Source: an uncultured archaeon
GTDB lineage: Archaea > Asgardarchaeota > Thorarchaeia > Thorarchaeales > Thorarchaeaceae
NCBI GenBank assembly: GCA_964631415.1
Contig: CAZVZC010000010.1
Coordinates: 1-50,881 of the forward strand
DNA: 50,881 bases
Reading direction: 5' to 3'
Shown: one piece after another, positions 33,228-48,980 of the stretch
Numbering within the stretch: position 1 is the stretch's first letter
Layout of the letters: each line of letters begins with the position of its first letter
Notes under the pieces: model-generated
Databases searched by the model: none
What the model saw: the letters and a program-made list of their open reading frames with translations, nothing else
What the model was told of the DNA's origin: nothing
Translations under genes and position numbers: made by a program

Positions 33228-33698
33228 ATGAGCAGTCCATCAGCTGAAGATGTCAGAAAGACTAGTATGGCGACGGTAGCTAGCGCCCACACGGTCTACA
33301 TCGAAGCGGTCCGAAAGATATCAGGCGAAAAAGGTCTGAGAGCCGTGGGCGAGGCAAACAGGCTTCATGGCTTGGAGCTTGGCAAAGCGGGTATAGCTAG
33401 CGGAGGCCTGAAGAAGGGCGATTTGAAATCCATCTACGAGTTCTTTCAGGGAGCCCATCCATACTTCGGCTTCGAGATAGAGCTTCTCAAGGCCACTAAC
33501 CGTGAGCTCGAAATGAAGGTCACTTACTGCCCGTGGATCGAGACCTTCAAGTCAGAAGGTGCAGGCACGGATATCTGCAACTGGGTCTGCAGAATGGACG
33601 AAGGCATCGGCCAAGCTGTTGATTCCAGGCTTGCGATGACGATTCCGATGTGCATGATGCGAGGAGATGCCTATTGCATCTACCGATACCAGAAGTAG
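33228..33698 (+). CDS. ATC-hydrolase/V4R-like protein
   Basis: KVTYCPW...ICNWVCRMD...CMMRGDAYCIYRY; TTTAAG at ~33176. Confidence 0.75.
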   Translation: MSSPSAEDVRKTSMATVASAHTVYIEAVRKISGEKGLRAVGEANRLHGLELGKAGIASGGLKKGDLKSIYEFFQGAHPYFGFEIELLKATNRELEMKVTYCPWIETFKSEGAGTDICNWVCRMDEGIGQAVDSRLAMTIPMCMMRGDAYCIYRYQK

Positions 33699-33721: not shown

Positions 33722-34852
33722 CTATACCCTGATTGGGTATCCGCCCTTCTTGAACGCATAGTCGTACATGTCCACGATCTTCTCTGGCGTGGAGTCAGGT
33801 TGGATGTTGTGCGCTGGGGCAAGTATGTATCCGCCACCCGGGGCGAACGCACGCAGGCGCGCGTCGACCTCCTTTCTTACGGCAGCAATAGTCCCCTCAA
33901 TCGACATCGCTTCCTGAAGGTCCACCCCACCGTGGAAGCTGATTCTGTCACCGTACTTGCGCTTCAGGGTCGCAGAGTCCATGCCCTTGGCCAGCGGCTG
34001 CACAGGATTCAGTATGTCCACGCCAACTTCGATCAAGTCGTTGATGATGGGTTCGATTGCACCGCAGCTGTGGAACAAGATCTTGGCATGAGGCGCTCTC
34101 CTATGGATATCCCCGTAGATTCTCTTGTGCCTGGGTTTGATGAGATTGCGATACATCATTGGACTAACAATCATCCCCTGTTGGTGGCCTAGGTCATCTC
34201 CCACCTGAACGATGTCGAGGTACTGGCTCACCTGGTCGAGAAAGACTCGATTGATGTTCATCGCATACTCCATGCACTTGTCCATCATGGCCTCTGCTAA
34301 GTCGCGACGGGTGGCCAGATCAAGCAGGAATGCCTCATAGCCTCGCATGTAGTGTTCACAAAACTCGAGCACACCCCATGGTCCTCCAACCATACCTACT
34401 ACGGCACAATCGCTGTCCTCGTGCAAATGCCGCGCCCACTCAACAACCCCGTCCATTCGAGATGGGTCATCCGCGTTTGGCCATTCATATTGCATGACCT
34501 GCTCGATCTCAGTGAACTGTGCCCATGGATGGTGCACAATCTCCCAGTAAGGGCCAATCCACTTTCCACGGAATCCATACTCCGAGTCGACTGAGCCGTC
34601 CTGGTACGTCCTCTGTTTGAAGCTGGATGCTTCTCTCATGTACACGCGTCTGAAGTCAACGTGAAGCCGGTTCAGAAGCGTTTCTGAGATTCTCCAGCTA
34701 CTCATTATACCCCACTCTTGTGTTTCAGGCGCAGTTATCTTGAGGTGGTTTCTGACCTTCTCATAAGCGGCAGGCGTGATCCATAGGTCGAGTGGCACTC
34801 TGTCTGCTTCTCTGTGTCCAAGTACCGCATGAACCCTATCTCTTGGTTTCAT
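33722..34852 (-). CDS. Uroporphyrinogen decarboxylase family protein (MtaA/CmuA-like)
   Basis: MKPRDRV..DRVP, MRGYE, GDDLG.Q, FHSCG, LNPVQP, FHGGVD, GGYILAPAHNIQ. Confidence 0.88.
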   Translation of the reverse strand: MKPRDRVHAVLGHREADRVPLDLWITPAAYEKVRNHLKITAPETQEWGIMSSWRISETLLNRLHVDFRRVYMREASSFKQRTYQDGSVDSEYGFRGKWIGPYWEIVHHPWAQFTEIEQVMQYEWPNADDPSRMDGVVEWARHLHEDSDCAVVGMVGGPWGVLEFCEHYMRGYEAFLLDLATRRDLAEAMMDKCMEYAMNINRVFLDQVSQYLDIVQVGDDLGHQQGMIVSPMMYRNLIKPRHKRIYGDIHRRAPHAKILFHSCGAIEPIINDLIEVGVDILNPVQPLAKGMDSATLKRKYGDRISFHGGVDLQEAMSIEGTIAAVRKEVDARLRAFAPGGGYILAPAHNIQPDSTPEKIVDMYDYAFKKGGYPIRV

Positions 34853-35020
34853 TCGCTGCTGCTCTCCTGCCGAGGCTGTCAGACTATTGGAAGCCCATAT
34901 TAAACCCGCACTTGAGGGGATACCGAAGCGCTTTAATGACGGGCATAGGCAAGGTCTGCACTTCACACTATGAATCATGAATGTCATCGACCTGACACTT
35001 CAAGGGAGTGAAACCTCACT

Positions 35021-36055
35021 ATGCGTAATTCGCGAGAATTGGTGCTTCAGAGTCTTCGCCATGAGCCGCCTGACCGCACCCCTGTTATTCCTCTTGCTGG
35101 TCTGTTCACAACGAGCGTTTCAGGAATTCCCGTGAACAAGTTACTGCGTGATCCTGATGCACAGACTCGTTCGCAGCTTGCTTCACTCAGGCAATTCGGC
35201 TACGACGGTGTCGTCACGATCATGGACCTCACGGCAGAGGCTGAGGCACTCGGAGCTACCGTGAAGTATCAAGAGAACGCATTTCCATACATTACTAAGC
35301 ATCCATATCCGGTACCTGCGGACTTTCCAGACCTTGAACTACCAGACATCAGAAAGACCCGGCTCTCTGTGTTCGTTGAAACAACGAGGAGTCTTGTGAA
35401 ACAAGTCGGGAAGACGCACTTCGTCGGCAGCTACGTCATAGGACCATTCACGCTCGCGGGCCAGCTAATGGGAGTTGAGCCACTCTTCGAGCTGATTACA
35501 GACGATCCGGACAGGGCTTTGTCCATTGTGAACAACTGTGAGGAGGTACTCGAACCATACGTTGAGCGGCTCGTCGAGGCGGGTACACACAGTGTCATAA
35601 TCCTAGAACCGACCGCCAGCTCAAGCGTGGTTCCACCTGACTTCTTCGTCAGGTATTCTGTGCCCAACGTCAAGCGACTGATCTCACTCTCAAAGGCTCA
35701 GGGCGCAGGTTCGACGCTTCATATTTGCGGGAACACAACGAAGATCATTGGGCTCATGTGTGATACAGGTGCAGATGCTTTGAGTCTTGATTCCAAGATC
35801 AGCATCGAGGAAGCGATGAAGATTGTCAATCAGAGATGCACGATCATAGGAAACGTTGACACGACCCTGATGCTTACTGGCACAGTTGACGAAATCGTGA
35901 CGGCAACCAAGAAATGCATTCAGGCAGCAGGTCCAAGCGGGGCCGGATTCATTGCTAGCACAGGCTGCGACCTCCCCATTGAAGCCCCATTCGACAATGT
36001 TCGGGCATTAGTAGATACTGCCAAAGGCCACAAGCCCGGCAAGCGTTCTTTGTAG
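35021..36055 (+). CDS. Methylcobamide:thiol (CoM) methyltransferase, MtaA/MtbA/CmuA family
   Basis: DLTAEAEALG, IGPFTLA, EPTAS, Zn ligands LHICG and STGCDLP. Confidence 0.85.
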   Translation: MRNSRELVLQSLRHEPPDRTPVIPLAGLFTTSVSGIPVNKLLRDPDAQTRSQLASLRQFGYDGVVTIMDLTAEAEALGATVKYQENAFPYITKHPYPVPADFPDLELPDIRKTRLSVFVETTRSLVKQVGKTHFVGSYVIGPFTLAGQLMGVEPLFELITDDPDRALSIVNNCEEVLEPYVERLVEAGTHSVIILEPTASSSVVPPDFFVRYSVPNVKRLISLSKAQGAGSTLHICGNTTKIIGLMCDTGADALSLDSKISIEEAMKIVNQRCTIIGNVDTTLMLTGTVDEIVTATKKCIQAAGPSGAGFIASTGCDLPIEAPFDNVRALVDTAKGHKPGKRSL

Positions 36056-36178
36056 GATGACTGTCATATCAGTTGGCATTCGGACTAGGGACTCGTTTAG
36101 ACATGGACCATTCATTGTCAGTTGGACAACCTTGGATACGGTCATCCCAACCATAGCAGTATCGACACACTCTTCGAA

Positions 36179-37621
36179 CTAGGGTCGCTTCTTTGCGCGC
36201 GCCTTGATTATCTCCCGCATCTTCGCCTCGACATCCTTGTTCAGAGGATCGACCTTGTGGGTTTCCAGGATCTTCTTGACCTTCTCCTTTGCTCTCATGA
36301 CCATGTCCTTTGATCCTTTGGCTTCCCAGTCTGGTCTTGAAGTCCTGTCAGTGAGAGATGGTATCCAGTACTCCTCCAGAAGGTGCTTGCGAGTGAAATC
36401 CAGGCCCTCGTCACTAGTCAGGTAGTTGCTCTCATGGCCAATCCCATCAATCAAGTCTACAGCAAGGGTCTCCTTTGAAACCTTCATACCTTTAGCTATA
36501 CGCTTGACTGCCCCGCATATCTCATTGCTGATGGCGAACATCTCATAGCTTGCTGTGATTCCCGTCTCCACAATGCCGTATACAGCATCGTGCACTACAT
36601 CTACGCCTGCAAGAGTTGCCGTCAACACGTTCATTGTGTTCTCATAGGCTGCCTGCGCGTCTGGAACTTTCGAATCGACTATGCCCGCTGCTCCATAGTA
36701 GGGTATTCCGTAGTAATGCGCCACTTGGCAGAACGCAGCGTGGATTAATCCGTTCTCTGGGCAGCCATACGCGGCTGTGCCATGTCTTTGGTCCATGATT
36801 GTCGCACATGATCCCCATATCATCGGAGTGCCCGGTCCGACAAGTTCTGTCAGTACGAGCACGGCGTGATTCTCAGCCACTCCCTGTACAACCATCCCCG
36901 CGAGCGTGATTGGCCCGCTTGCACTGGCCAGGGCTCCTGTGCTTATGTCAAAAGGAATCCTGTACTTAGCGCACTCAAGGGCGATGTCTATTATGTTTGC
37001 CGTGTATTTGAGCGGTGGCACATTGTTGAGGCCAGTATCGATAATGGACGGATTTCTGAGAAACTCCTCTTCTCCTCCTGCGTACAGCTTGGCCATCTCG
37101 ATGACATCTCTGAACCCTTCTTGAGTCACAGCCAAAAAACTCAGGTGTTTCTCAGAGCTCTTGAACATCGAAAGAGCCATGGTCTGCTCAAGGATGTCCT
37201 GTGACACTTCCTGAGGGATTATGTTGGGCTTGATGTAATCCACTGTCGGGAAGTAATCCGAGAGCAGTGTGAACTCCTCCAGGTCCCTGAGAGTAGAAGC
37301 TCTACGCTGGCCGGTGTTCAGATCATACGTGCACTGAGCCCCAAAGGCATTTGTGAAGTAGGAATTGCCGTCGCCGATGAGTACGTTGTATTTCGGATTG
37401 ATGGCTTTGAAGAGGTGCCTGCTCGGAGTCTTCCTCAGCGTTTCCTTCACCAGGTACTCCGGTATATGAGCTACCTTCTTCTTCTGATCAATGGTCGCTC
37501 CCGCTTCTTTGAGTATCTTGAGAGCCTCATCATGCTGAATGAGTATTCCGGTTCTCTCCAGAACCTCCATTGCGGCCATGTGTATCGCATAGACTTCGTT
37601 CCGACTTAGCAGTTCAAACAT
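36179..37621 (-). CDS. mttB: Trimethylamine methyltransferase (MttB) superfamily protein, non-pyrrolysine
   Basis: IHMAAMEVLERTG, SGPITLAG..VQ..AE, GIVDSKVPDAQAAYE, ETLAVDLI; no in-frame TAG. Confidence 0.88.
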   Translation of the reverse strand: MFELLSRNEVYAIHMAAMEVLERTGILIQHDEALKILKEAGATIDQKKKVAHIPEYLVKETLRKTPSRHLFKAINPKYNVLIGDGNSYFTNAFGAQCTYDLNTGQRRASTLRDLEEFTLLSDYFPTVDYIKPNIIPQEVSQDILEQTMALSMFKSSEKHLSFLAVTQEGFRDVIEMAKLYAGGEEEFLRNPSIIDTGLNNVPPLKYTANIIDIALECAKYRIPFDISTGALASASGPITLAGMVVQGVAENHAVLVLTELVGPGTPMIWGSCATIMDQRHGTAAYGCPENGLIHAAFCQVAHYYGIPYYGAAGIVDSKVPDAQAAYENTMNVLTATLAGVDVVHDAVYGIVETGITASYEMFAISNEICGAVKRIAKGMKVSKETLAVDLIDGIGHESNYLTSDEGLDFTRKHLLEEYWIPSLTDRTSRPDWEAKGSKDMVMRAKEKVKKILETHKVDPLNKDVEAKMREIIKARAKKRP

Positions 37622-37645
37622 GTAGCATTCACCCAGTCCTTAGTA

Positions 37646-38302
37646 TCAAACCGGCTTTTTCGCAACCAAGCGCACGACAAGACTCACCGCTGTCACGGCA
37701 TCACCCGCCCATCCATCAGCACCTATGTCCTTTGCCCACTTCTCTGTAGTCGGGGCGCCTCCTATTATGACCTTCACTTTGTCCCTCAAACCGGCCGTCT
37801 TCAGCTCCTCGATTATCTTCCTCTGAATGGGCATCGAGGATGTGATGAGCGACGACAGGCCCAAGACGTCTGGCTTCTGGTCTCGGACGTTCTTCAGGAT
37901 AACGTCTATCGGTACATCTTCGCCCAAGTTTGACACTTCGAATCCGTGCGCCTCCATCATTGTAGCGACGATGTCCTTTCCGATGCTGTGAATGTCTCCC
38001 TGTACAGTTGCTATGACCACCTTTCCGGCGCTCTTGATCTTGCTCTTCGAGGCCTTGATCTCGGGCAGAAGGACAGACATCCCTGCCTTCATGGCCTTCG
38101 CAGCAGCCATAAGCTCGACAAGGAAGACCTCTCCTTCGCCGAACTTGTCACCAATCTCTCTGACGCCTTTTGCCAACCCGCCGGTTATAGCATCCATTGG
38201 AGATATCTTCGCCTCCAATGCCTTCTTGGCAGCATTCATGGCCTTGTCCTTATTCCCTTGGATGACAGCTTCTCGCATTTCCTCGAGTATGACTGACGAC
38301 AT
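37646..38302 (-). CDS. Cognate corrinoid protein (MttC/MtaC-like)
   Basis: Cap domain; GDIHSIGKDIV (DxHxxG), GLSSL, IIGGAP. Confidence 0.93.
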   Translation of the reverse strand: MSSVILEEMREAVIQGNKDKAMNAAKKALEAKISPMDAITGGLAKGVREIGDKFGEGEVFLVELMAAAKAMKAGMSVLLPEIKASKSKIKSAGKVVIATVQGDIHSIGKDIVATMMEAHGFEVSNLGEDVPIDVILKNVRDQKPDVLGLSSLITSSMPIQRKIIEELKTAGLRDKVKVIIGGAPTTEKWAKDIGADGWAGDAVTAVSLVVRLVAKKPV

Positions 38303-38379
38303 TGTTCTGTGACCTCACATCTGTAAACCCAACAAGTATCTGAGAATGATATGTCCTCTGGTAGTTCCCTGCTTTCGAT

Positions 38380-38412
38380 ACGAAAGAAAAAAGGAGGAGG
38401 AGGCTTAGCCCC
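38380..38412 (-). terminator. Putative U-rich terminator after the APC permease
   Basis: Minus strand reads ggggctaagcctc..ccttttttctttcg directly after the stop codon. Confidence 0.45.
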
Positions 38413-38413
38413 C

Positions 38414-40012
38414 TCACTCTGGTGGTAGAGACTCGTAGATAGATCCTATTTCGATGTTCTTCTTCCTGAGATGCCGGGCATACACTACGAACCACAATGC
38501 CGAGAAGCCATACTGCACTGTCATCATGACTACGGAGAGGAACGCTGCTCCTTGGAAGAAGCCGATCATCACGAAGAGTGACAACGGCAGTATTATGATA
38601 CCCAGCAATGACATCAATGGGAATCCAGCAATCTCGGGTTGCTTCCTGATGCTGCCCTCGTATAGTGGTTTCTTCAGATATGGAAGCTGGAGAGCAGCCA
38701 TGGACTGGAATATCATCTCAATGCCCCAAAGGCCAACTAGGGATGTAATGACACCGATGAGACCGACCATTCCTGGCAATGTGAAGACAACTGCAAACGG
38801 CACACCGAAGAGGAAGTAGTAAGCGATTGCCCAGGTTGGGGTGTGGAACTTGGACAGCTTTCCAAAGAACGATGGCATCACGCGGTCAAGCGAGCCTTGG
38901 AAGAACCCTCGGGTAACCCACGCCATGTTGATCGGAGTCGCAGTCAGCCCAATCACTGGAGCGGAGAGTAGGATCCAACCTGAGATAACAGGATTCGCTG
39001 CAAGTACAGCTGACATTGTTCCAAAGCCAGTGGAGAAGACAGGAGATATCGTCAGCAGACCTGAGCCGGCTGCTACTGCATATTGAGTGGAGAAGTAACC
39101 GAACGTGCCTTGGAACACGGCTGCTCCTCCTGCGAGCAATACCGCTAGGATGATGCCGCCAAACACCTGTACGAGCACTAGGTTCTTCGCGGGGTCAGAC
39201 ATCTCGCCGCCATAGTGTAGGATTAGATACGGCCAGACTAGGCCGACGGGCCACACTGTACCTAGGAATGTCATTGTCCAATTGAAAGCGGGCGCAACAG
39301 CATATCCCGCCCCCGTGGCAACACTCACAACCTCGCTGTAGGCTCCCGCTCCAAAGGTGGTGTCCCATCTTGTCTGGACTGCGCCCGTGGGAGTGGAAAC
39401 CAAGACCAAGATTGCCATTATCCATCCTATTGTGGAGAATAGACCACCAATCATCTGAATGCGTGGCTCAACCTTGAATAGCGGACCCAAGTATGCAATG
39501 ATGCAGAAGACTAACATCAGGAATATCGAGAGTCCGACAAGCAAGGCTGGATTTCCTGCCTGTGCTGACATTGCCAACCCCCAACCTGACAGCAATGCAT
39601 TACCGGTTACCGCACCCCACTGAGAGAAGGCCGCCCCGAGGAACACAATGAAGAGGAAGAACTCGCTCATCTTGATGATTGGATTCGCGATTATCCCCCG
39701 CCACACTGCGAGTATCCCCGTGACCGGGTTGAAACCTCTGGCTGAGATCTGGTAGATACCTGCTGACCGAGGCATTGCCATGGACAGCAGTGTTAGCATA
39801 ACTGTGTAAATCAACATGAAGCCCATGCCTATGCCCCAGGTTAAGCCTGCGCTTATGCCCGGGTACATATCCTGAAGTACACCGACGAACATCCATTGCC
39901 AAGTGCCAAGGCTGGCACCTATTATGGCAAACAGAGATGTCCACGTGCCGAAGTACTTGGTAAGGCCTGATGTTGGTCTTAGAAAGAGAACTTCGCCTGT
40001 ACGTTGAGACAT
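38414..40012 (-). CDS. APC-superfamily amino acid/amine permease
   Basis: FLRPTSGL, AMPRSAGIY, YGGEM, DRVMP..FGKL.KFHTP; about 12 TM segments. Confidence 0.88.
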   Translation of the reverse strand: MSQRTGEVLFLRPTSGLTKYFGTWTSLFAIIGASLGTWQWMFVGVLQDMYPGISAGLTWGIGMGFMLIYTVMLTLLSMAMPRSAGIYQISARGFNPVTGILAVWRGIIANPIIKMSEFFLFIVFLGAAFSQWGAVTGNALLSGWGLAMSAQAGNPALLVGLSIFLMLVFCIIAYLGPLFKVEPRIQMIGGLFSTIGWIMAILVLVSTPTGAVQTRWDTTFGAGAYSEVVSVATGAGYAVAPAFNWTMTFLGTVWPVGLVWPYLILHYGGEMSDPAKNLVLVQVFGGIILAVLLAGGAAVFQGTFGYFSTQYAVAAGSGLLTISPVFSTGFGTMSAVLAANPVISGWILLSAPVIGLTATPINMAWVTRGFFQGSLDRVMPSFFGKLSKFHTPTWAIAYYFLFGVPFAVVFTLPGMVGLIGVITSLVGLWGIEMIFQSMAALQLPYLKKPLYEGSIRKQPEIAGFPLMSLLGIIILPLSLFVMIGFFQGAAFLSVVMMTVQYGFSALWFVVYARHLRKKNIEIGSIYESLPPE

Positions 40013-40113
40013 TTGATTAGCCTCTTAAACGTAAATGCAACCTGCGCTGGCATTTAAGAGTTTTGTATCGAATCGAGAAGCTAAAGTGCAACGAGTTCTG
40101 CAGAGGCATGGAG

Positions 40114-40821
40114 CTATAATGTCACTTTAACAATATAGTACCTTCTCCAAGGTCGGGGTTTCTTGACGACCTCGATGTGGTCGTAGTCGATGCATCCTAG
40201 ACCGACCATATGCTTCTCGGGCTCCTCACCTGTCTGCAGGAGGTACTTACGCAGCTCTTCGATGAGCATTTGCACCGTTTCTCGAAGGTCGCCGGAGCGA
40301 AGCTTCTGTGCCTCCGGGTTTTCTCTGAAATAGGCGTCTATCTTGCTGGCGATTCTTGCCCCAAGGATGCTTCTGGAAACTAGGCCTGTGAGTAGTGAGC
40401 CAAGAGCAACAAAGATCATGTAGGGCGCTATCTGCTGAATAATGCTAACCCCGGGAGCCAGAAGTGATGCAAACAGAATGATGAAGGCAACAGGGACCAG
40501 GATTTGCCACATTGCTTCTATGTAGGACTGTATCTTGGCCAGTCGGCGTGCCCCCGGTATCTTGACAGTGATTCGGGCCATTTTGTACATCTTGAGCTGG
40601 ACCGATTTCCAGTCGTCTGCAAAAGAGCGGCCGAGATTGCCCTGCTGAGCTTTCCTGTCAATCCAGCTGAAGTCATAGAACACATGAGACCGGTAGGCGT
40701 CTATGGTATAAGCGACCTTTCCGATTTCGGTGGGGTCTATCTTGCTTTGACGTGCGCTCGGCTGGGAACGTCCACGGTCTGTACGTCCGCTCTCATCGTC
40801 ATCACGCATCATTCTTGTCAC
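40114..40821 (-). CDS. Hypothetical 2-TM membrane protein
   Basis: Two central hydrophobic helices; starts 11 nt after the phosphoesterase stop. Confidence 0.75.
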   Translation of the reverse strand: MTRMMRDDDESGRTDRGRSQPSARQSKIDPTEIGKVAYTIDAYRSHVFYDFSWIDRKAQQGNLGRSFADDWKSVQLKMYKMARITVKIPGARRLAKIQSYIEAMWQILVPVAFIILFASLLAPGVSIIQQIAPYMIFVALGSLLTGLVSRSILGARIASKIDAYFRENPEAQKLRSGDLRETVQMLIEELRKYLLQTGEEPEKHMVGLGCIDYDHIEVVKKPRPWRRYYIVKVTL

Positions 40822-40832
40822 GGCTCTGGTGA

Positions 40833-41807
40833 CTACGCTGACACGTTCAGTACTTCAACCTTCCCACCAGCACTCTTCGGCAGGTCGAGAACAAAAGCAT
40901 TCAGCATGCCTTGAATGTAGACAGAGCCCGAGTTCACACACAGAGTCCTACCTATCTGCTCTATGCCCCCCGACTCATGAATGTGACCGTGAAGGCCAAG
41001 CAGAGGTTGGTGCTTCTCGATCAACTCCCGCATGCTCTTGCTGCCTACGTGGACCATCTCGACGTTGCCAAAGCGAACCTTCACTTTCTGCTGGCTGTCC
41101 AGTTTTGGAGCAAGATCAAGTCGCGTACCGTATGGAGGCGCATGGAAGTTGCAGATCAGGTTCTCGTACTGCACGACTCGATCGAACTCCTTCTGCAGCT
41201 TGGGTCTTAGATCTTCGTCAGAGCATTCACGTGGTGTTCCCCAAGGTGTGGAGTTCACCCACTCACAGCTGATCATCGAGTGAAGGTCATCAATCTCTAC
41301 CACGCGTTCGATGGGGTATATGACCCTCCCGCTGTTTTTGATGAGATCGTCGATGGCCTGCGCGTCATCGTTTCCTGGTGATACGACAACTTTCACGTCA
41401 GCGGGAACCGTTTCCTCAATCCATCGGAGCCAATCGCGCATCCTGTCAATCATTAGTTTGGCAAAGAGATCACTTGCTTTCTTGTGGTCTGACTGCAACT
41501 CAGTCAGCTCAGACTCAGTGGTCATGAACCAGTAGAAGCCGCGCTTCTCGAATGCCTTCTTCGCCGCGTCAACTGCTTCTTGGTTCTTGTACTTCTCCCT
41601 TGTCCCGTACGCAGCTGACCACCAAGAGCCCGGCTTTTCTTCTATGATGGGAACAAGAGCCTTCCCGGTCAGGTCCCCGCACATCATGACCACATCACAC
41701 TTGTATGCTTCGTGGACCTTCGCCATCTTTCGCAGTACTGGAACGCTTCCGTGAGCATCGCAAGAGAAGAAGAGTCGCGTCATCGGCTTAATCCTTTTCG
41801 AAGGCAC
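40833..41807 (-). CDS. Calcineurin-like metallophosphoesterase (Icc-related)
   Basis: CDAHGS, GDLTGK, PGNDD, FHAPP, LHGHIHE; alternative ATG at 41783. Confidence 0.9.
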   Translation of the reverse strand: MPSKRIKPMTRLFFSCDAHGSVPVLRKMAKVHEAYKCDVVMMCGDLTGKALVPIIEEKPGSWWSAAYGTREKYKNQEAVDAAKKAFEKRGFYWFMTTESELTELQSDHKKASDLFAKLMIDRMRDWLRWIEETVPADVKVVVSPGNDDAQAIDDLIKNSGRVIYPIERVVEIDDLHSMISCEWVNSTPWGTPRECSDEDLRPKLQKEFDRVVQYENLICNFHAPPYGTRLDLAPKLDSQQKVKVRFGNVEMVHVGSKSMRELIEKHQPLLGLHGHIHESGGIEQIGRTLCVNSGSVYIQGMLNAFVLDLPKSAGGKVEVLNVSA

Positions 41808-41818
41808 CGGAACAGATA

Positions 41819-41854
41819 TTTAAGTGTTAACGTGGGGGTCCATAACAACTTAAA
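41819..41854. promoter_or_regulatory. Symmetric, overlapping divergent promoter
   Basis: tttaagtgtta (41819-41829) and its near reverse complement taacaacttaaa (41843-41854). Confidence 0.5.
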
Positions 41855-41868
41855 ACTGAGGACTCTTC

Positions 41869-42651
41869 ATGCAGGGAGTTACAGGGTCGAATGATGCATT
41901 CGTCAAGGAAGGCTTGCGGATCGTACGGGCTGCTGAAAAGGAAGGGGTAGTCCTCAGAGTCATGGGTGCTGTGGCAATCAGGATTCATTGCCCTGGGTCC
42001 CTTGACCTGCTCCAAGAGCTTGGACGTGACATATCAGACATCGATTTCGTGGGCTACGAGAAGCAGACCTCAAAGATAGAGAAATTGATGCCGACTCTTG
42101 GCTACACCAGCAGGCAACTATCTTACAGCTTTGTACAGGCAGGACGACTGATCTTCTTGGACAGTTCCGACCCGACTGGGTCCAAGCACATCGATGTCTT
42201 TCTTGATAGACTGGCAATGTGCCATACCATTCCCTACTTGGGACGACTTGAGGTTGACAGTCCTACAGTCCCTCTGGCAGAGATTCTGCTTCAGAAGACT
42301 CAGATTGTGCAGCTGAGTGAGAAGGATGTCAAAGACACCATGGTGCTTTTCAAAGAGCATGACATAGGCGCGAATGACTCGGACACAATCAACATACGCT
42401 ATATCGCTGAGCTACTGTCGAAAGACTGGGGGTTTTACTACACTGTGACTACAAACCTGCAGAAGGTGAAGTCACTAGTCAGCGGGTTTTCGGTCCTGTC
42501 AGCACAAGACAGGCAAGTTGTTGTGTCTAGGATTGACAATAGCCTTGCTAGGCTCGATGCTGAGCCGAAGACCAGTGCTTGGAGAATGCGTGCAAAGGTT
42601 GGGGTTAAGAAAAAGTGGTACAAGGATGTGTACTCCCCCACCAAGCTCTAG
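41869..42651 (+). CDS. Pol-beta superfamily nucleotidyltransferase-like protein
   Basis: VMGAVAI, DISDIDF (DxD), HIDVF (third Asp), KD.KD, DWG. Confidence 0.78.
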   Translation: MQGVTGSNDAFVKEGLRIVRAAEKEGVVLRVMGAVAIRIHCPGSLDLLQELGRDISDIDFVGYEKQTSKIEKLMPTLGYTSRQLSYSFVQAGRLIFLDSSDPTGSKHIDVFLDRLAMCHTIPYLGRLEVDSPTVPLAEILLQKTQIVQLSEKDVKDTMVLFKEHDIGANDSDTINIRYIAELLSKDWGFYYTVTTNLQKVKSLVSGFSVLSAQDRQVVVSRIDNSLARLDAEPKTSAWRMRAKVGVKKKWYKDVYSPTKL

Positions 42652-42761
42652 TCCCGCCAAACCGAATCCTAACTCTGGTCTGCGATGCTCTCTCCTGTCT
42701 CAGCCATCCACTGCCTCTGTCTATTTAACGATACTAGGCCGCCGAGTCCTCCGAAGCTCAA

Positions 42762-43832
42762 TCATTTCGGGAAGACTATCTGCACTTTGATTGATTTCGA
42801 CTTCTCCTTGTTCAGAGCGACGTCGAATGCAGCGGGAGCATCACTGAGAGGATATCGGTGAGTGATGAGCTTCTTAACATCCAGCTTACCTCGAGCCAGA
42901 AGGTCGAGAGATATGGCGAACTCCTTGATGTGAGTCCAGTTCTCGTACCCCCAAGCCGATCTCATGACGAGTTCCTTGGTCAGGAATCCGAATGGTTCGA
43001 TTGTGACTGGCTTCACGTAGATTCCGGTCATCACCAGGATTCCCCTGCGCCTTAGAATGGATAGGCCATCAGTGATTGCAGATGACTCCCCGCCAACAGA
43101 TTCTATGACCTTGTCTACTCCATTGCCACCTGTCAATTCATTGATTCTGTCAACAGGTTTCTCAGTGCGTGCATTGATCGTGCTTGCGGCTCCGAAATCC
43201 TTCGCTGCTCTTAGCTGGAAGTCGTGTGTGCCCACCGCATGAACTTCCCTCGCACCCGCCAGTAACGCCGCCCTGACTGCAAGAAGTCCGATTGTGCCGG
43301 CACCAAACACTGCGACCGTGTCTTCATTGGAAACCCGTGCGAGCCTGACTGCATGCTCGGCCACGGAGATGCAGTCCAGCATGGCTGCCTCTTCGAATGA
43401 TACATTCTCTGGCAGCTTGAAACAACTGTCAGCCGGCACCGCGCAATACTCGGCCATACCACCATTGAGGTAGAATCCTATGAGCCGAGAGGCAGAGCAC
43501 AGATTGTACCATCCGGCACGACACCACTTGCACACGCCGCAGCTGATGGTGGGTTCAACCCCAACTCTGTCACCTTTGACAATCCCTCTTACATCAGGCC
43601 CCACCTGGTAGACCTCTCCCGACAGTTCATGCCCCGGCACGTATTTCCCCTCCCCGAGTTCAGAGGAAACGGGGATGAACGTCTTCTGTTTGTAGAGGTG
43701 CAGGTCGCTCCCACATATCCCTGTGGCTCTGACCTTCAGGAGGACCCAGTCCGGCCGAAGGTCCGCAATGTTGATGTTCTCCACTCTGACGTCCTTCGGA
43801 CCGTACAGAACTGCTGCTCGTGTGCTTTTCAT
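42762..43832 (-). CDS. Zn-dependent medium-chain alcohol dehydrogenase (Tdh/GutB-like)
   Basis: GICGSDLH, GHE, CGVCKWC.......C, GAGTIG. Confidence 0.92.
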   Translation of the reverse strand: MKSTRAAVLYGPKDVRVENINIADLRPDWVLLKVRATGICGSDLHLYKQKTFIPVSSELGEGKYVPGHELSGEVYQVGPDVRGIVKGDRVGVEPTISCGVCKWCRAGWYNLCSASRLIGFYLNGGMAEYCAVPADSCFKLPENVSFEEAAMLDCISVAEHAVRLARVSNEDTVAVFGAGTIGLLAVRAALLAGAREVHAVGTHDFQLRAAKDFGAASTINARTEKPVDRINELTGGNGVDKVIESVGGESSAITDGLSILRRRGILVMTGIYVKPVTIEPFGFLTKELVMRSAWGYENWTHIKEFAISLDLLARGKLDVKKLITHRYPLSDAPAAFDVALNKEKSKSIKVQIVFPK

Positions 43833-44015
43833 GCTCGACACCTCGTCGTATGCAAGGAAGAAGAATGCGATACATAAGTGTTATTCTGAAATCCGCGGCT
43901 CGACCTGCTGTCGTCACACAAACGTCATTAGATATGCCATGGTCCATCACGTGATTATGGCGTGAAGACCTCTTCTTGTCGACCCACTCTTGACTCGCAT
44001 TCGCTCCGTCTGATT

Positions 44016-44351
44016 CTAGACAATGGCCGGCTCTTGTGTGGTTTGTTTCTCTCTCTCCTTTCCTTCTCTGGCACTGCCGAGGCATAGGAGTATAACAATC
44101 GGTATGATGAAGATCCATAAGATAATTGGCACAAAGAGAACACAAATGACAAGGACTAGGACGGCCCACAAATTGGGTGATGACTCGCCAGTGCTTTCGG
44201 CTTCAGCTATATCTACGACGGGTAATCCTTCAGGACGCGTGAGAGGCTTCGCACAGAATTGGCACCTATAAGTTCCATCTGCCGCAAGGATCAGTATTGT
44301 GGATCTGCCGCAAGACTGGCAGTCCGCCATTGCTCCGCGCTCTTGAGCCAA
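44016..44351 (-). CDS. Small Zn-ribbon + TM-hairpin protein (paralog 1)
   Basis: CQSC..ILAADGTYRCQFC, long hydrophobic stretch; TTG start after GGTGGAG. Confidence 0.7.
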   Translation of the reverse strand: MAQERGAMADCQSCGRSTILILAADGTYRCQFCAKPLTRPEGLPVVDIAEAESTGESSPNLWAVLVLVICVLFVPIILWIFIIPIVILLCLGSAREGKEREKQTTQEPAIV

Positions 44352-44576
44352 CGCTCCACCACCTTGTGCAGAAGAGTGGAAAATGTGGTATAAGCCTTTA
44401 GGCAGACAGGAGGGGCTTGAGTGCAGACGCTGCTCGGCAATCTGTGCTATTCATGACGCAGTTCAAAATGAAAAAAGCATTCGTTGGAGATCGCCGGAAG
44501 ACTGGTCGAAACATGAATGTGAGAGTAACTGAAGTCGGACTGTGCCACAGTCCTCCATGGGTAGTCACATCTGACC

Positions 44577-44912
44577 TTAGACAATGCTCGCGTCTTCTGA
44601 GGCCGGCTTCTTTTCTTGGTCCCGGTCGGTGGCCATTCCTATGCATAGTAACACCACAAAGGGTGAGACAACTAACCAGAAGGCTATCGGCAGAAAGAGC
44701 ACGCAAATGGCAAACACAGCTACTGCACACAGAAGACCTGAGATATCGACCGTGCTTTGGGGCTGTGCCTCTGCCGCTGGGGCCAATCCCTCAGGAAATG
44801 TAATAGGCTTCGCACAGTAGCGACACCTGTATGTTCCATCGGCCGCAAGGATTAGTGTTGTAGAGCTAACACAAGAGGGACATATTACGAGATCACCATG
44901 CTCCCGATCCAT
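44577..44912 (-). CDS. Small Zn-ribbon + TM-hairpin protein (paralog 2)
   Basis: CPSC..LILAADGTYRCRYC; same 111-aa length and layout as paralog 1. Confidence 0.7.
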   Translation of the reverse strand: MDREHGDLVICPSCVSSTTLILAADGTYRCRYCAKPITFPEGLAPAAEAQPQSTVDISGLLCAVAVFAICVLFLPIAFWLVVSPFVVLLCIGMATDRDQEKKPASEDASIV

Positions 44913-46375
44913 GGCTCCGACTCCTCACTCAGTACTCTCAGAATAACGAGATAAGGCTTCCGACAGCCAAGACCGGGCAAGTCATGCATGTTGTTTGCAG
45001 AGCAAGAAGCGATGTGCAAGCGGTGTCTGAGCAGTGGCGCAGAGGGGCGTGTGTCAGGCCTACCGAGAGATAGCACAAGATACAACGAGAGCCATGAAGG
45101 CAAGATGGTTCAGATTACACGTGTCGTTTGCGTGCGAGTCAAAGGGCTTGGGCGGCACAAGACATGTCCGGGGACAAGTCCGCGCAACTCTCAAGACTGA
45201 GAGGAGAAGCAAAGCTGGGCAGCTGTGCGATTCACCTTTAGGAGTCAGCTGGTGTTATTGAGAGCGCCATGCCACGAGATCTCCATTTGTCCAAAGAGGC
45301 CAAGTGGAAGCTTCAATACGTTCGGACACCAACATGATGCATAGAGAGAGCAGCCATTCAGGGAACTGCATTACGGGTTTGGCTATGACCTCAAGGTCAT
45401 AGATACATTGAACGAGGAATGTCCACATTGTGGAGGCAGACTCATTGAGAAGCATCAAGAAACCGTCGTCGAGGAAGGCAAGGCGATCGTATTCGTGCAC
45501 TTCCGCTGTGTGAAATGCGGGAAGTGGACAAAGCGAGAACGGCTTTAGCTGTCAGGAAGCCTAGGGGGTGGCCGGGGTCCCCAGGGAATCGTGGTTGCAG
45601 AGGGGAGTTTCTTGCTTGAGGGCATTTGGGGAAAACTAGCCCTGCTGACAGGCCGACCACCGATTGGATGTTTGCTGAGGTCACTAATAAGTGCCGCCTA
45701 TCCTTCAGCGTTAGACATTGGCGCTTCGGACCACTGGGGCGACATCGGCGCCAAGCACGTGATTACGGCTCATGATAGGTCTGTGAAGAGTCTGCGCACA
45801 AGCGATCGAGTCCTGCATGGAAGGGCGGCCTATTTGACTGGTTATATATACATCGACCCCTTGCTGTTGGGGTTATTGATCTGGGTCGATACCTAGTGGG
45901 CTCCATTCTTCTCTGCTGGGTGAAAACCAGTCAATGTCAAAAGGGCCGCCCATTCGTCCTTGTCTGGAATGAAACGAAGGGGCTAGTTCCGACGGCTCAG
46001 AATCACAGGCATCGTGTTGTGAATTGGCTCCAACAGTTCGGCTGATTCTGTTACGATAATCGCATACAACTGTAGAAACAATCAAAGCGAGCAACAGGAT
46101 TCGCGCTTCACACATCTGCTTCCACAAGAGTGGCTACTGCTTCAAGAGGATTTAGGGAGTCCCACAGGTCTCCAGCTGTTCCTCTGTGTGGTGAGCTCAA
46201 TGCAGCCTAAACAGAGTCGGACTAAGAGTGTCCCAAATGAGGTGAAGTCTGTATGAGTTTATCTTATCTGCATTGTTCTGCAAGGTTTAGCCGCTTGCCG
46301 TGATCATGCGGCCAGTCAAAGGATTAGTTGGCCATCGCGAAATGGCCGGCATCTGTTGGGCGGGGACCTCTAACG

Positions 46376-48547: not shown

Positions 48548-48965
48548 TCGGAATGGTGTCGTACTGCTCGTTGAGGATGACCCTGACGACGCGGAACTAG
48601 CGATGTCTGCTTTAGGGCAGGCGAAACTGCTGAACAGGATAGTGCACGCACGAGACGGAGAAGAGGCTCTTCGATATCTGTTTGAGGAGCCACTGCACCC
48701 TCTTCCCACTGTGGTCTTGCTAGACCTGAAAATGCCCAAAGTAGACGGCCTTGACGTATTAAAGCGTATCAGGTCTGAGAACAAGACGAAGACCCTGCCA
48801 GTTGTAGTGTTGACCTCCTCTAGGGAGGACCGCGACATACGCAAATGCTATGACCTCGGAGTGAACAGCTACATTGTAAAACCAGTGGACTTCGAACAGT
48901 TCGCATCGAGTGTCAAGCAGCTCGGTCTTTACTGGGTGGTCCTCAACACTGTTCCGCCTGTCTAG
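48540..48965 (+). CDS. Single-domain response regulator (Rcp1-like)
   Basis: LLVEDDPDD, LLDLKMP, LTSS, NSYIVKP, LGLYW. Confidence 0.95.
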   Translation: MSNRNGVVLLVEDDPDDAELAMSALGQAKLLNRIVHARDGEEALRYLFEEPLHPLPTVVLLDLKMPKVDGLDVLKRIRSENKTKTLPVVVLTSSREDRDIRKCYDLGVNSYIVKPVDFEQFASSVKQLGLYWVVLNTVPPV

Positions 48966-48980
48966 GAAGGTGAGATTGAG

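What the first reader, a model, noticed from the sequence alone, without database searches (positions are those of the whole stretch)
33722..43832. Candidate undescribed pathway: corrinoid demethylation cluster coupled to a phosphoesterase, nucleotidyltransferase, permease and dehydrogenase
Seen: a co-oriented run of phosphoesterase > 2-TM protein > APC permease > corrinoid protein > MttB, flanked by an NTase and Zn-dehydrogenase on one side and two URO-D/MtaA proteins on the other. Known: non-Pyl MttB enzymes demethylate quaternary amines (glycine betaine MtgB, carnitine MtcB, proline betaine MtpB) via a corrinoid protein and a second methyltransferase. Inference: uptake and unmasking of a phosphorylated or nucleotide-linked N-methyl compound (e.g. 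phosphocholine, CDP-choline or a methylated amino sugar), oxidation, then methyl transfer into C1 metabolism of a presumably non-methanogenic archaeon. The substrate is a hypothesis.
Basis: partly seen in the sequence, partly recalled or inferred. Interest (0 to 1): 0.72.

Follow-up and report, generated by a model that had tools for sequence, protein, structure and literature searches.

The report
Asgard methylamine-demethylation cluster with portable uptake module
An uncultured Asgard archaeon carries a conserved gene cluster that most likely imports an unknown N-methylated amine and removes a methyl group with a vitamin-B12 enzyme system, joined to a widespread four-gene permease / nucleotidyltransferase / phosphoesterase module whose chemistry is unknown.

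Summary

The cluster is not a chance adjacency. ATCh-MttB-corrinoid-permease-2TM-phosphoesterase / NTase / Zn-ADH is kept in every orthologous Thor-, Hermod- and Promethearchaeota-labelled locus that is long enough. The same gene set survives a rearrangement in L008.

The phosphoesterase, NTase-fold protein, 2-TM protein and APC permease form a portable module:
- In 201 Asgard genomes, 82 of 125 NTase copies lie within 10 kb of the phosphoesterase, but only 12 within 10 kb of an MttB.
- The other copies sit beside class-III aminotransferases, aldehyde:ferredoxin oxidoreductases, alcohol dehydrogenases or DUF917/racemase genes.
- In bacteria the module sits beside choline/ethanolamine kinase and N-demethylases.

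The module is therefore a permease-linked unit, not an MttB-specific unmasking step.

The substrate is unknown. The glycine-betaine pocket is not conserved. The genome has RACo, MtrH, Mch and FTHFS; McrA, CdhC and CdhD were not found (85% complete).

I favour internal nucleotidyl-ester formation and later hydrolysis of an amino-alcohol-type solute. Regulation of the transporter is a close rival.

Earlier notes of this scan reported the same module on other DNA.

The parts
33228..33698 (+). ATC_hydrolase-like small Cys-rich protein (156 aa), a conserved cluster member of unknown role
   Evidence: PF14196 at 59 bits. A homologue lies directly beside MttB in 8 of the orthologous loci and in L004, L007 and L008. 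A paralogue lies beside the second module on contig C3.
33722..34987 (-). URO-D-like protein (421 aa); only the C-terminal half matches URO-D/MtaA. Possibly a second corrinoid methyltransferase.
   Evidence: PF01208 at 93 bits over residues 159-410. A 73%-identical paralogue lies beside the second module on C3. Homologues occur in L045, L046 and L051.
35021..36055 (+). MtaA/CmuA-family methylcobamide methyltransferase (MT2), 344 aa, with an H-x-C ... C zinc motif
   Evidence: PF01208 at 238 bits; TIGR01463 at 207 bits, below its cut-off of 235. LHICGN and STGCD motifs are seen in the translation.
36179..37621 (-). Pyrrolysine-free MttB-superfamily substrate:corrinoid methyltransferase (MT1), 480 aa
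   Evidence: PF06253 at 335 bits; TIGR02369 at 444 bits, below its cut-off of 525. The frame is uninterrupted, with Ile314 at the pyrrolysine position. It is the only MttB in the genome. Orthologues at 62-99% identity come from records labelled Thor-, Odin- or Promethearchaeota.
37646..38302 (-). Cognate corrinoid protein (218 aa)
   Evidence: B12-binding_2 plus B12-binding domains; TIGR02370 at 211.5 bits.
38414..40012 (-). APC-superfamily permease (532 aa), the transporter of the portable module
   Evidence: AA_permease_2 at 30.2 bits. The family profile hits CAT1 (E 9e-9) and LysP among solved structures. It travels with the phosphoesterase and NTase in 56 of 80 loci.
40114..40821 (-). Basic 2-TM protein (235 aa, pI about 9.7) with conserved N- and C-terminal soluble domains; no known family
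   Evidence: No Pfam or NCBIfam hit. Alignment A3 has invariant D41, Y43, R44, W71, Q184, D212, Y213. Two hydrophobic segments lie at about 100-155. It was detected only in archaeal copies of the module.
40833..41807 (-). Calcineurin-like metallophosphoesterase (316 aa from the ATG at 41783) with a GNDD variant of motif III; probably a phosphodiesterase
   Evidence: Weak Metallophos_2/_3 hits. Conserved D9xH11, G36D37, N138D139, H214 and H265-G-H267-x-H269. Model pLDDT 93. The best fold matches are the uncharacterised aq_1956 and TT1561.
41808..41868 (.). Divergent promoter spacer between the phosphoesterase operon and the NTase gene, with a conserved AGATATTTAA TATA-like element
   Evidence: Sequence. 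AGATATTTAA is invariant in six orthologous spacers.
41869..42651 (+). Pol-beta-fold nucleotidyltransferase of the ANT(2'')/LnuA/MenT structural group (260 aa); no Pfam family
   Evidence: Model pLDDT 92. VIA-align Z 12.2 to ANT(2'')-Ia, 12.0 to MenT1, 10.2 to TglT and 9.9 to LnuA. Invariant G33-A34, D57xD59 and D109. A distant paralogue on C6 hits DUF6036 and Aminoglyc_resit.
42762..43841 (-). Zn-dependent alcohol dehydrogenase of the polyol / threonine dehydrogenase subfamily (359 aa)
   Evidence: ADH_N plus ADH_zinc_N domains; Tdh model at 221 bits, below its cut-off. The nearest solved relatives are ketose reductase, Tdh and sorbitol/xylitol dehydrogenases. It is present in 11 of 12 orthologous loci.

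Best explanation
This is a conserved Asgard catabolic cluster for a cationic, hydroxyl-bearing N-methylated compound of unknown identity; it is not glycine betaine.

Shown: the gene families, the conserved synteny, the intact catalytic motifs, and the independence of the module from MttB.

Inferred pathway: the APC permease imports the solute. The pyrrolysine-free MttB homologue moves one N-methyl group onto the adjacent corrinoid protein. The Zn-motif MtaA-like protein, and/or MtrH encoded elsewhere, passes the methyl group to a thiol or to H4MPT. RACo, encoded elsewhere, re-reduces the corrinoid. With no ACS found in this genus, the methyl group is probably oxidised through the H4MPT/THF branch. 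The polyol/threonine-type Zn-ADH oxidises a hydroxyl of the substrate or product.

The metallophosphoesterase, NTase-fold protein and 2-TM protein belong with the permease as a portable four-gene uptake module. The same module serves other amine and amino-alcohol catabolic genes.

Favoured chemistry (inference): inside the cell the ANT(2'')/LnuA-like NTase esterifies a hydroxyl of the imported amino-alcohol-type solute with a nucleotide. The downstream enzyme, here MttB, works on the ester, as MthB works only on phosphocholine. The GNDD-type phosphodiesterase then releases the alcohol for the ADH.
For: Gene content.

Synteny:
- ADH / NTase / phosphoesterase / 2TM / permease / corrinoid / MttB is kept in metagenome loci at 79-70% MttB identity.
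- The same gene set is kept after rearrangement at 63% identity.
- Among 12 species-representative orthologous loci, 9 carry the whole set and the other 3 are cut by contig ends.
- Of 8 top-scoring NTase orthologues in the Asgard sample, 7 lie within 10 kb of an MttB.
- L004 joins URO-D, MtrH and RACo directly to the cluster.

Genome background: RACo x2, MtrH x3, Mch and FTHFS are present. McrA, CdhC and CdhD were not found. CdhC was not found in any of the 3 other genomes of the genus.

Portability of the module:
- The NTase and phosphoesterase families have near-identical distributions, 76 and 75 of 201 genomes.
- 82 of 125 NTase copies lie within 10 kb of the phosphoesterase, and only 12 within 10 kb of an MttB.
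- A second module on contig C3 of the same genome lies beside DUF917 genes and a racemase.

Amino-alcohol theme:
- The neighbour tally gives Aminotran_3 x6, AOR x4 and Fe-ADH x3.
- Of 38 bacterial loci, 25 carry a choline/ethanolamine kinase and 23 a DMGDH-like demethylase.
- MthB accepts only phosphocholine (PMC12155760).

Enzymes: the NTase fold is closest to small-molecule O-nucleotidyltransferases, and both catalytic sites are intact.
Against: - No substrate was identified. The MttB pocket differs from MtgB (R312 to Tyr, F356 to Gly), and no comparison with MthB was possible.
- In bacteria a choline kinase accompanies the NTase, so the NTase is not simply the activating enzyme there.
- Several module contexts have no obvious use for an ester: DUF917/racemase, PmbA/TldD, peptidases.
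- MenT-type tRNA nucleotidyltransferases match the fold as well as ANT(2'') does (Z 12.0 against 12.2).
- Between paralogues in this genome the phosphoesterase and NTase are more conserved (48% and 41% identity) than the permease (30%). This fits a substrate-independent role at least as well.
Confidence: 0.42

Rival explanations
1. Regulatory writer/eraser. The NTase and phosphodiesterase reversibly nucleotidylylate a protein (the basic 2-TM protein or the permease), or make and degrade a nucleotide signal that gates uptake. The MttB system is just one of many catabolic clients of this regulated permease.
For: - The module travels with the permease whatever the catabolic context.
- The NTase and phosphoesterase genes diverge from a shared conserved TATA-like spacer.
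- Between paralogues in one genome, the phosphoesterase and NTase are more conserved than the permease and the 2-TM protein.
- The 2-TM protein has invariant Tyr43 and Tyr213 in basic soluble domains.
- In 27 of 38 bacterial loci a four-CBS-domain protein follows the NTase. CBS domains are nucleotide sensors on osmolyte transporters (own knowledge).
Against: - No PII, HD, DAC or cyclase-type partner was seen.
- The NTase is structurally nearer to ANT(2'')/LnuA/MenT than to cGAS-like cyclases (Z 6.9).
- No metallophosphoesterase de-AMPylase is known to me.
- The bacterial loci are mostly Chloroflexota, so the CBS count is not made of independent observations.
Confidence: 0.27
2. A pre-formed phosphorylated or nucleotide-linked N-methyl compound (phosphocholine, CDP-choline and the like) is imported, unmasked by the phosphoesterase, oxidised and demethylated.
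For: - The phosphoesterase has an intact active site and is co-transcribed with the permease and MttB.
- Some metallophosphoesterases hydrolyse phosphocholine-type diesters (own knowledge of GpdQ, YfcE and SMPDL3A; GpdQ appears among the fold matches).
- Phosphocholine is a known MttB-family substrate (PMC12155760).
Against: - APC permeases carry amino acids and amines. The nearest solved relatives are the cationic amino-acid transporters CAT1 and LysP.
- The phosphoesterase has no signal peptide evident in its translation and is cytoplasmic by sequence.
- The model gives the NTase no role.
- The module mostly serves contexts without MttB.
Confidence: 0.1
3. The NTase is a MenT/AbiEii-like toxin or defence gene, or the block is otherwise functionally unrelated to its catabolic neighbours.
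For: The fold matches MenT1, TglT and MenT4 (Z 9-12). The phosphoesterase hits a candidate defence model, PDC-S10, at 45 bits.
Against: - No antitoxin-like partner is present.
- The block is strictly linked with an APC permease and catabolic genes across archaea and bacteria.
- Synteny with MttB survives a rearrangement.
- The NTase itself has no meaningful PADLOC hit.
Confidence: 0.04

Closest known systems
Quaternary-amine:corrinoid methyltransferase systems of the MttB superfamily (MtgB/MtgC/MtgA, MtpB, MtcB, MtyB)
   Same: A pyrrolysine-free MttB homologue sits next to a cognate corrinoid protein and a second methyltransferase, with a reductive activator elsewhere in the genome.
   Different: About 35-38% identical to solved MttB and MtgB. 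The MtgB carboxylate-binding Arg312 and the cation-pi Phe356 are replaced by Tyr and Gly. The substrate is unknown. The host is an Asgard archaeon in which mcr and ACS were not found. The system is permanently linked to an ADH and the four-gene module.
MthK/MthB/MthC/MthA choline:THF methyltransferase system of Eubacterium limosum (PMC12155760)
   Same: An MttB-family enzyme works on an O-esterified amino alcohol, with an esterifying enzyme encoded beside it. Bacterial copies of the module sit beside choline/ethanolamine kinase and MttB or MtmB homologues.
   Different: No choline kinase was found in this genome. The candidate esterifying enzyme is a Pol-beta-fold NTase, and a phosphodiesterase is present. 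MthB orthology could not be tested.
ANT(2'')-Ia and LnuA small-molecule O-nucleotidyltransferases, and MenT/TglT tRNA nucleotidyltransferase toxins
   Same: Shared fold (Z 9.9-12.2) and the same catalytic carboxylates.
   Different: 9-18% identity, no Pfam family, extra C-terminal helical domain, no resistance or toxin context.
Uncharacterised Metallophos_3 proteins aq_1956 (2yvt) and TT1561 (1uf3); YfcE/MJ0936-type diesterases
   Same: Calcineurin-like fold with all metal ligands. Motif III lacks the usual His, as in diesterase-type members (the diesterase link is from my own knowledge).
   Different: Only about 15% identity, with an inserted 90-residue cap between motifs II and III. No biochemical data exist for the nearest structures.
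Nucleotide-controlled transport: GlnD-GlnK-AmtB, and c-di-AMP acting on the CBS domains of OpuC
   Same: A transporter is encoded with a nucleotide-transferring enzyme and a hydrolase. Bacterial copies add a CBS protein.
   Different: No PII, HD or DAC domains. This is an analogy only.

Membership tests
MttB superfamily (PF06253), non-pyrrolysine branch | Full-length match to the MTTB model above its cut-off | tested here: met
   335 bits against a cut-off of 25.
MttB superfamily (PF06253), non-pyrrolysine branch | No in-frame UAG at the pyrrolysine position | tested here: met
   The ORF is uninterrupted, and Ile314 aligns with Pyl334 of M. barkeri MttB.
MttB superfamily (PF06253), non-pyrrolysine branch | Adjacent cognate corrinoid protein and an MT2; reductive activator in the genome | tested here: met
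   The corrinoid protein lies 24 bp upstream. An MtaA-like gene is adjacent. RACo x2 and MtrH x3 are encoded elsewhere.
MttB superfamily (PF06253), non-pyrrolysine branch | Methylation of Co(I)-corrinoid by a quaternary amine | not testable with these tools
   This needs a biochemical assay.
MtgB (glycine betaine methyltransferase) | Substrate-binding residues Y97, R312, H348 and F356 (PMC13080624) | tested here: not met
   Y97 corresponds to F93 and H348 to H344, but R312 is Tyr309 and F356 is Gly354 in the alignment to 9yce.
TMA methyltransferase MttB (TIGR02369 equivalog) | Score above the equivalog cut-off, and pyrrolysine present | tested here: not met
   443.6 bits against a cut-off of 525; no Pyl codon.
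MthK/MthB phosphocholine system | Choline kinase (MthK-like, PF01633) with the MttB homologue | tested here: not met
   PF01633 was not found in the 85%-complete genome. It is present beside bacterial copies of the module.
MthK/MthB phosphocholine system | Orthology of the MttB homologue to MthB | not tested
Pol-beta-fold nucleotidyltransferases (ANT(2'')/LnuA/MenT group) | NTase fold with hG[GSA], DxD and a third carboxylate | tested here: met
   Z 12.2 to 4xje and 12.0 to 8an4. Invariant G33-A34, D57, D59 and D109.
Pol-beta-fold nucleotidyltransferases (ANT(2'')/LnuA/MenT group) | Membership of a curated sequence family | tested here: inconclusive
   The window protein has no Pfam or NCBIfam hit. 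A distant paralogue hits DUF6036 and Aminoglyc_resit weakly.
Calcineurin-like metallophosphoesterases | Five metal-binding motifs and the fold | tested here: met
   DxH, GD, GNDD (His replaced by Asp), H and GHxH are conserved in 20 sequences. 100 Foldseek matches at E <= 0.001.
APC-superfamily permeases | Match to the amino-acid permease models | tested here: met
   AA_permease_2 at 30.2 bits against a cut-off of 27. A paralogue hits AA_permease at 48.6 bits. The profile hits CAT1 at E 9e-9.
GlnD/PII-type or c-di-AMP-type transport regulation | PII protein, HD domain or DAC domain in the module | tested here: not met
   The Pfam scans of the module genes showed none of these domains.

The most novel reading that the evidence does not exclude
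The permease, NTase, GNDD-phosphodiesterase and (in archaea) 2-TM protein form a previously undescribed kind of transport-coupled nucleotidylation system. It would either trap imported amines or amino alcohols as nucleotidyl esters that downstream enzymes use as their true substrates, or it would act as a covalent switch on the transporter. It is spread by horizontal transfer between Asgard archaea, Bathyarchaeia and several bacterial phyla.
Probability: 0.3. Interest if true: 0.85.

Novelty: new variant of a known kind. Interest (0 to 1): 0.6.

Why it matters
Pyrrolysine-free MttB enzymes are numerous in Asgard archaea and other uncultured anaerobes, yet only six substrates are known. A tightly conserved cluster that names its own transporter, dehydrogenase and accessory enzymes gives a concrete handle for finding a new substrate, and for testing non-methanogenic methylotrophy in relatives of the eukaryotic ancestor.

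The four-gene module is separate from that question. It matched at least 578 loci in species-representative genomes of archaea and bacteria. It has no characterised homologue, and no paper describing it turned up in the full-text search. Working out its chemistry would annotate many loci at once, and could reveal a new way of coupling uptake to substrate activation or control.

Tried and rejected
- Complex prediction (2-TM protein against NTase plus phosphoesterase) gave no support: ipSAE 0.07 and 0.00, controls not run. Earlier attempts found the machine busy. This is not evidence either way.
So there are no expression data and no language-model neighbours.
- Sequence and profile searches of the NTase and phosphoesterase against PDB sequences gave nothing significant.
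- A search for a Rosetta-stone fusion of the 2-TM protein to long (570-714 aa) permeases found none.
- PADLOC gave only a generic 45-bit phosphoesterase hit to PDC-S10 and nothing meaningful for the NTase or the 2-TM protein. The defence reading was rejected.
- Literature searches for DUF917 / S-Me-THD and for the gene combination were uninformative. Asgard papers mention non-Pyl MttB with MtrH but not this module.
- The glycine-betaine (MtgB-type) assignment was rejected on pocket residues.
- A choline to betaine aldehyde to glycine betaine route was considered. AOR is adjacent only in L004, and the MtgB pocket is absent, so it was not adopted.

Full report
**What is in the sequence**

On the minus strand, with gaps of 11, 101, 111 and 24 bp, lie:
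- a calcineurin-like metallophosphoesterase (MPE), 40833-41807; public protein sets start it at the ATG at 41783, giving 316 aa;
- a 235-aa protein without any family, 40114-40821;
- an APC permease, 38414-40012;
- a corrinoid protein, 37646-38302;
- an uninterrupted MttB homologue, 36179-37621.

Diverging from the MPE across 61 bp is a 260-aa gene (41869-42651), followed by a convergent Zn-ADH (42762-43841).

**The three poorly annotated genes**

- *260-aa protein.* It has no Pfam or NCBIfam hit. A 20-sequence alignment shows invariant G33-A34, D57xD59 and D109. The AlphaFold model is confident (pLDDT 92). VIA-align ranks ANT(2'')-Ia (Z 12.2), MenT1 (12.0), TglT (10.2) and LnuA (9.9) first. 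It is therefore a Pol-beta-fold nucleotidyltransferase of the small-molecule-ANT / MenT structural group.
- *MPE.* It keeps DxH, GD, H and GHxH, and carries GNDD where GNH[D/E] is usual. Its model (pLDDT 93) is closest to the uncharacterised aq_1956 and TT1561.
- *235-aa protein.* It has two central hydrophobic helices and very basic, conserved N- and C-terminal domains, with invariant D41, Y43, R44, W71, Q184, D212 and Y213.

Neither the NTase nor the MPE has a sequence-level relative among solved structures.

**The organism and its C1 background**

The window is contig C10 of a 2.16-Mb, 85%-complete MAG. The MttB orthologues (62-99% identity) come from records labelled Thor-, Odin- or Promethearchaeota.

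- Present: this single MttB, two RACo reductive activators, three MtrH genes (one beside RACo and a corrinoid-protein paralogue on C34), Mch and FTHFS.
- Not found: McrA, CdhC and CdhD. CdhC is also missing from the three other genomes of the genus, while 13 of 41 genomes searched in the family have it.

This fits a non-methanogenic methyl-oxidising or methyl-assimilating use of the methyl group, as proposed for other Asgard lineages (PMC11291895). Incompleteness of the MAG must be kept in mind.

**Is the cluster real?**

Yes.
- Metagenome contigs carrying MttB orthologues at 79, 73, 71 and 70% identity keep ADH / NTase (opposite strand) / MPE / about 220-aa protein / permease / corrinoid / MttB.
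- At 63% identity the order is rearranged, but the same gene set is still together.
- In L004 the cluster is contiguous with URO-D, MtrH and RACo on one side, and with a flavodoxin-like protein, a ferredoxin and an aldehyde:ferredoxin oxidoreductase on the other.
- Among the 12 closest loci in one-genome-per-species contigs, 9 show ATCh-MttB-corrinoid-permease-2TM-MPE / NTase / ADH. The other three are cut by contig ends.
- In a sample of 201 Asgard genomes, 7 of the 8 top-scoring NTase orthologues lie within 10 kb of an MttB.
- The MPE/NTase spacer holds an invariant AGATATTTAA in six orthologous loci, a shared TATA-like element for the divergent genes.

**The block is not specific to MttB**

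- The NTase and MPE families have almost identical phyletic profiles: 76 and 75 of 201 genomes, in the same GTDB families.
- 82 of 125 NTase copies have an MPE within 10 kb, 70 of them within 2 kb. Only 12 have an MttB within 10 kb.
- This genome holds a second module on contig C3, next to two DUF917/S-Me-THD genes, a hydantoin-type racemase, a FAD_binding_4/CCG pair, and paralogues of the URO-D-like and ATCh genes.
- Other copies sit beside DUF917 plus racemase plus NicX in Bathyarchaeia, beside Fe-ADH plus SDR, or beside a second corrinoid/URO-D set.
- A Pfam tally of 145 neighbour proteins from 16 diverse Asgard modules is led by class-III aminotransferases (6), aldehyde:ferredoxin oxidoreductases (4, with ferredoxins), PmbA/TldD (4) and Fe-ADH (3).
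- The NTase family matched at least 578 loci in species-representative genomes, reaching Bathyarchaeia, Nitrososphaerales, Chloroflexota, Actinomycetota, Acidobacteriota and Proteobacteria. Of the best 80 loci, 64 keep the MPE and 56 the permease.
- In the 38 bacterial loci, 25 also carry a choline/ethanolamine kinase, 23 a dimethylglycine-dehydrogenase-like demethylase, 29 a DeoR regulator and 27 a four-CBS protein. A Thermoleophilia locus has MttB, a corrinoid protein, an MtmB-like gene, a choline kinase, the NTase, the MPE and the permease in a row. These bacterial loci are mostly Chloroflexota and are not independent observations.

**Substrate clues**

- The MttB is about equally distant from the Pyl-containing TMA enzyme (259 bits) and from MtgB (230 bits).
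- Ile314 occupies the pyrrolysine position.
- Of the four glycine-betaine-binding residues of MtgB (PMC13080624), the aromatic Y97 and H348 are kept as F93 and H344. The carboxylate-binding R312 is Tyr309 and F356 is Gly354. A glycine-betaine pocket is therefore not present.
- The permease profile's nearest solved relatives are the cationic amino-acid transporters CAT1 and LysP.
- The ADH belongs to the polyol / threonine dehydrogenase branch.
- No choline kinase was found in this genome.

Together this points to a cationic N-methylated compound bearing a hydroxyl group. The identity remains a hypothesis.

**Mechanism**

The MT1 / corrinoid / MT2 part follows established MttB-superfamily logic. 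For the module I weigh three readings.

(a) *Metabolic ester cycle (favoured).* The NTase, whose closest structural relatives adenylylate hydroxyls of amino-alcohol-like antibiotics, esterifies the imported solute. MttB acts on the ester, as MthB acts only on phosphocholine. The His-less GNDD phosphoesterase, a motif I associate with diesterases such as YfcE and MJ0936 (own knowledge), frees the alcohol for the ADH. The choline-kinase, aminotransferase, AOR and ADH neighbourhoods fit amino-alcohol catabolism through O-esters.

(b) *Regulatory writer/eraser or nucleotide signal acting on the permease.* This is supported by the context-independence of the module, by the greater conservation of the MPE and NTase than of the permease between paralogues (48% and 41% against 30%), by the basic 2-TM protein with invariant tyrosines, and by the CBS protein in bacterial versions.

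I put these at roughly 0.4, 0.27 and 0.1.

**Relation to earlier notes of this scan**

The same NTase / MPE / (2-TM) / permease module had been noted on other DNA. Two follow-ups called it an orphan uptake unit serving choline/glycine-betaine islands in bacteria. I reached the portable-module reading, before seeing those notes. I tested the bacterial choline-kinase association myself.

**Verdict**

The demethylation core is a new member of a known kind. Its fixed association with an uncharacterised, widely distributed permease / NTase / phosphodiesterase module makes the whole a new variant worth experimental work.

Noticed in passing
G000 contig C3, locus L019:2500-19300: A second, paralogous module (permease, 2-TM, phosphoesterase, NTase) is interleaved with two DUF917/S-Me-THD genes, a hydantoin-type racemase, a FAD_binding_4 + CCG pair, a class-I/II aminotransferase, and paralogues of the URO-D-like (73% identity) and ATC_hydrolase-like genes of the window.
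   Followed up: partly
L004:7133-8717: In one orthologous cluster (73% MttB identity) the permease is called as two overlapping genes of 178 and 365 aa. This is a frameshift or an assembly error.
   Followed up: no
Asgard sample genomes G135:C65:25250-26701 and G165:C22:126659-128095: Some Asgard MttB matches carry exactly one in-frame TAG. They could be pyrrolysine-type MttB genes or pseudogenes. NTase copies in G012 and G034 also show single in-frame TAG codons.
   Followed up: no
window 44016-44912: The 2.5-kb stretch between the ADH and the histidine-kinase genes has no ORF above 170 aa, no tRNA and no Rfam match. It holds two about 111-aa minus-strand ORFs 561 nt apart that share a 92-nt direct repeat at 78% identity, so they look like tandem small paralogues.
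   Followed up: partly
G000 contig C6, locus L020:5357-6106: A lone distant paralogue of the NTase (weak DUF6036 and Aminoglyc_resit hits) lies next to a corrinoid adenosyltransferase, an FMN reductase and a methylmalonyl-CoA mutase gene, with no phosphoesterase or permease adjacent.
   Followed up: partly
genus of G000 (G116, G152, G155): CdhC (acetyl-CoA synthase) was not found in any of the four genomes of this genus, although 13 of 41 genomes searched in the family have it. The genus may have lost the carbonyl branch of the Wood-Ljungdahl pathway.
   Followed up: partly
window 46328-50825: Two large PAS/GAF histidine-kinase genes (one with a receiver domain) lie downstream of the cluster. 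Orthologous loci do not keep them next to it.
   Followed up: no
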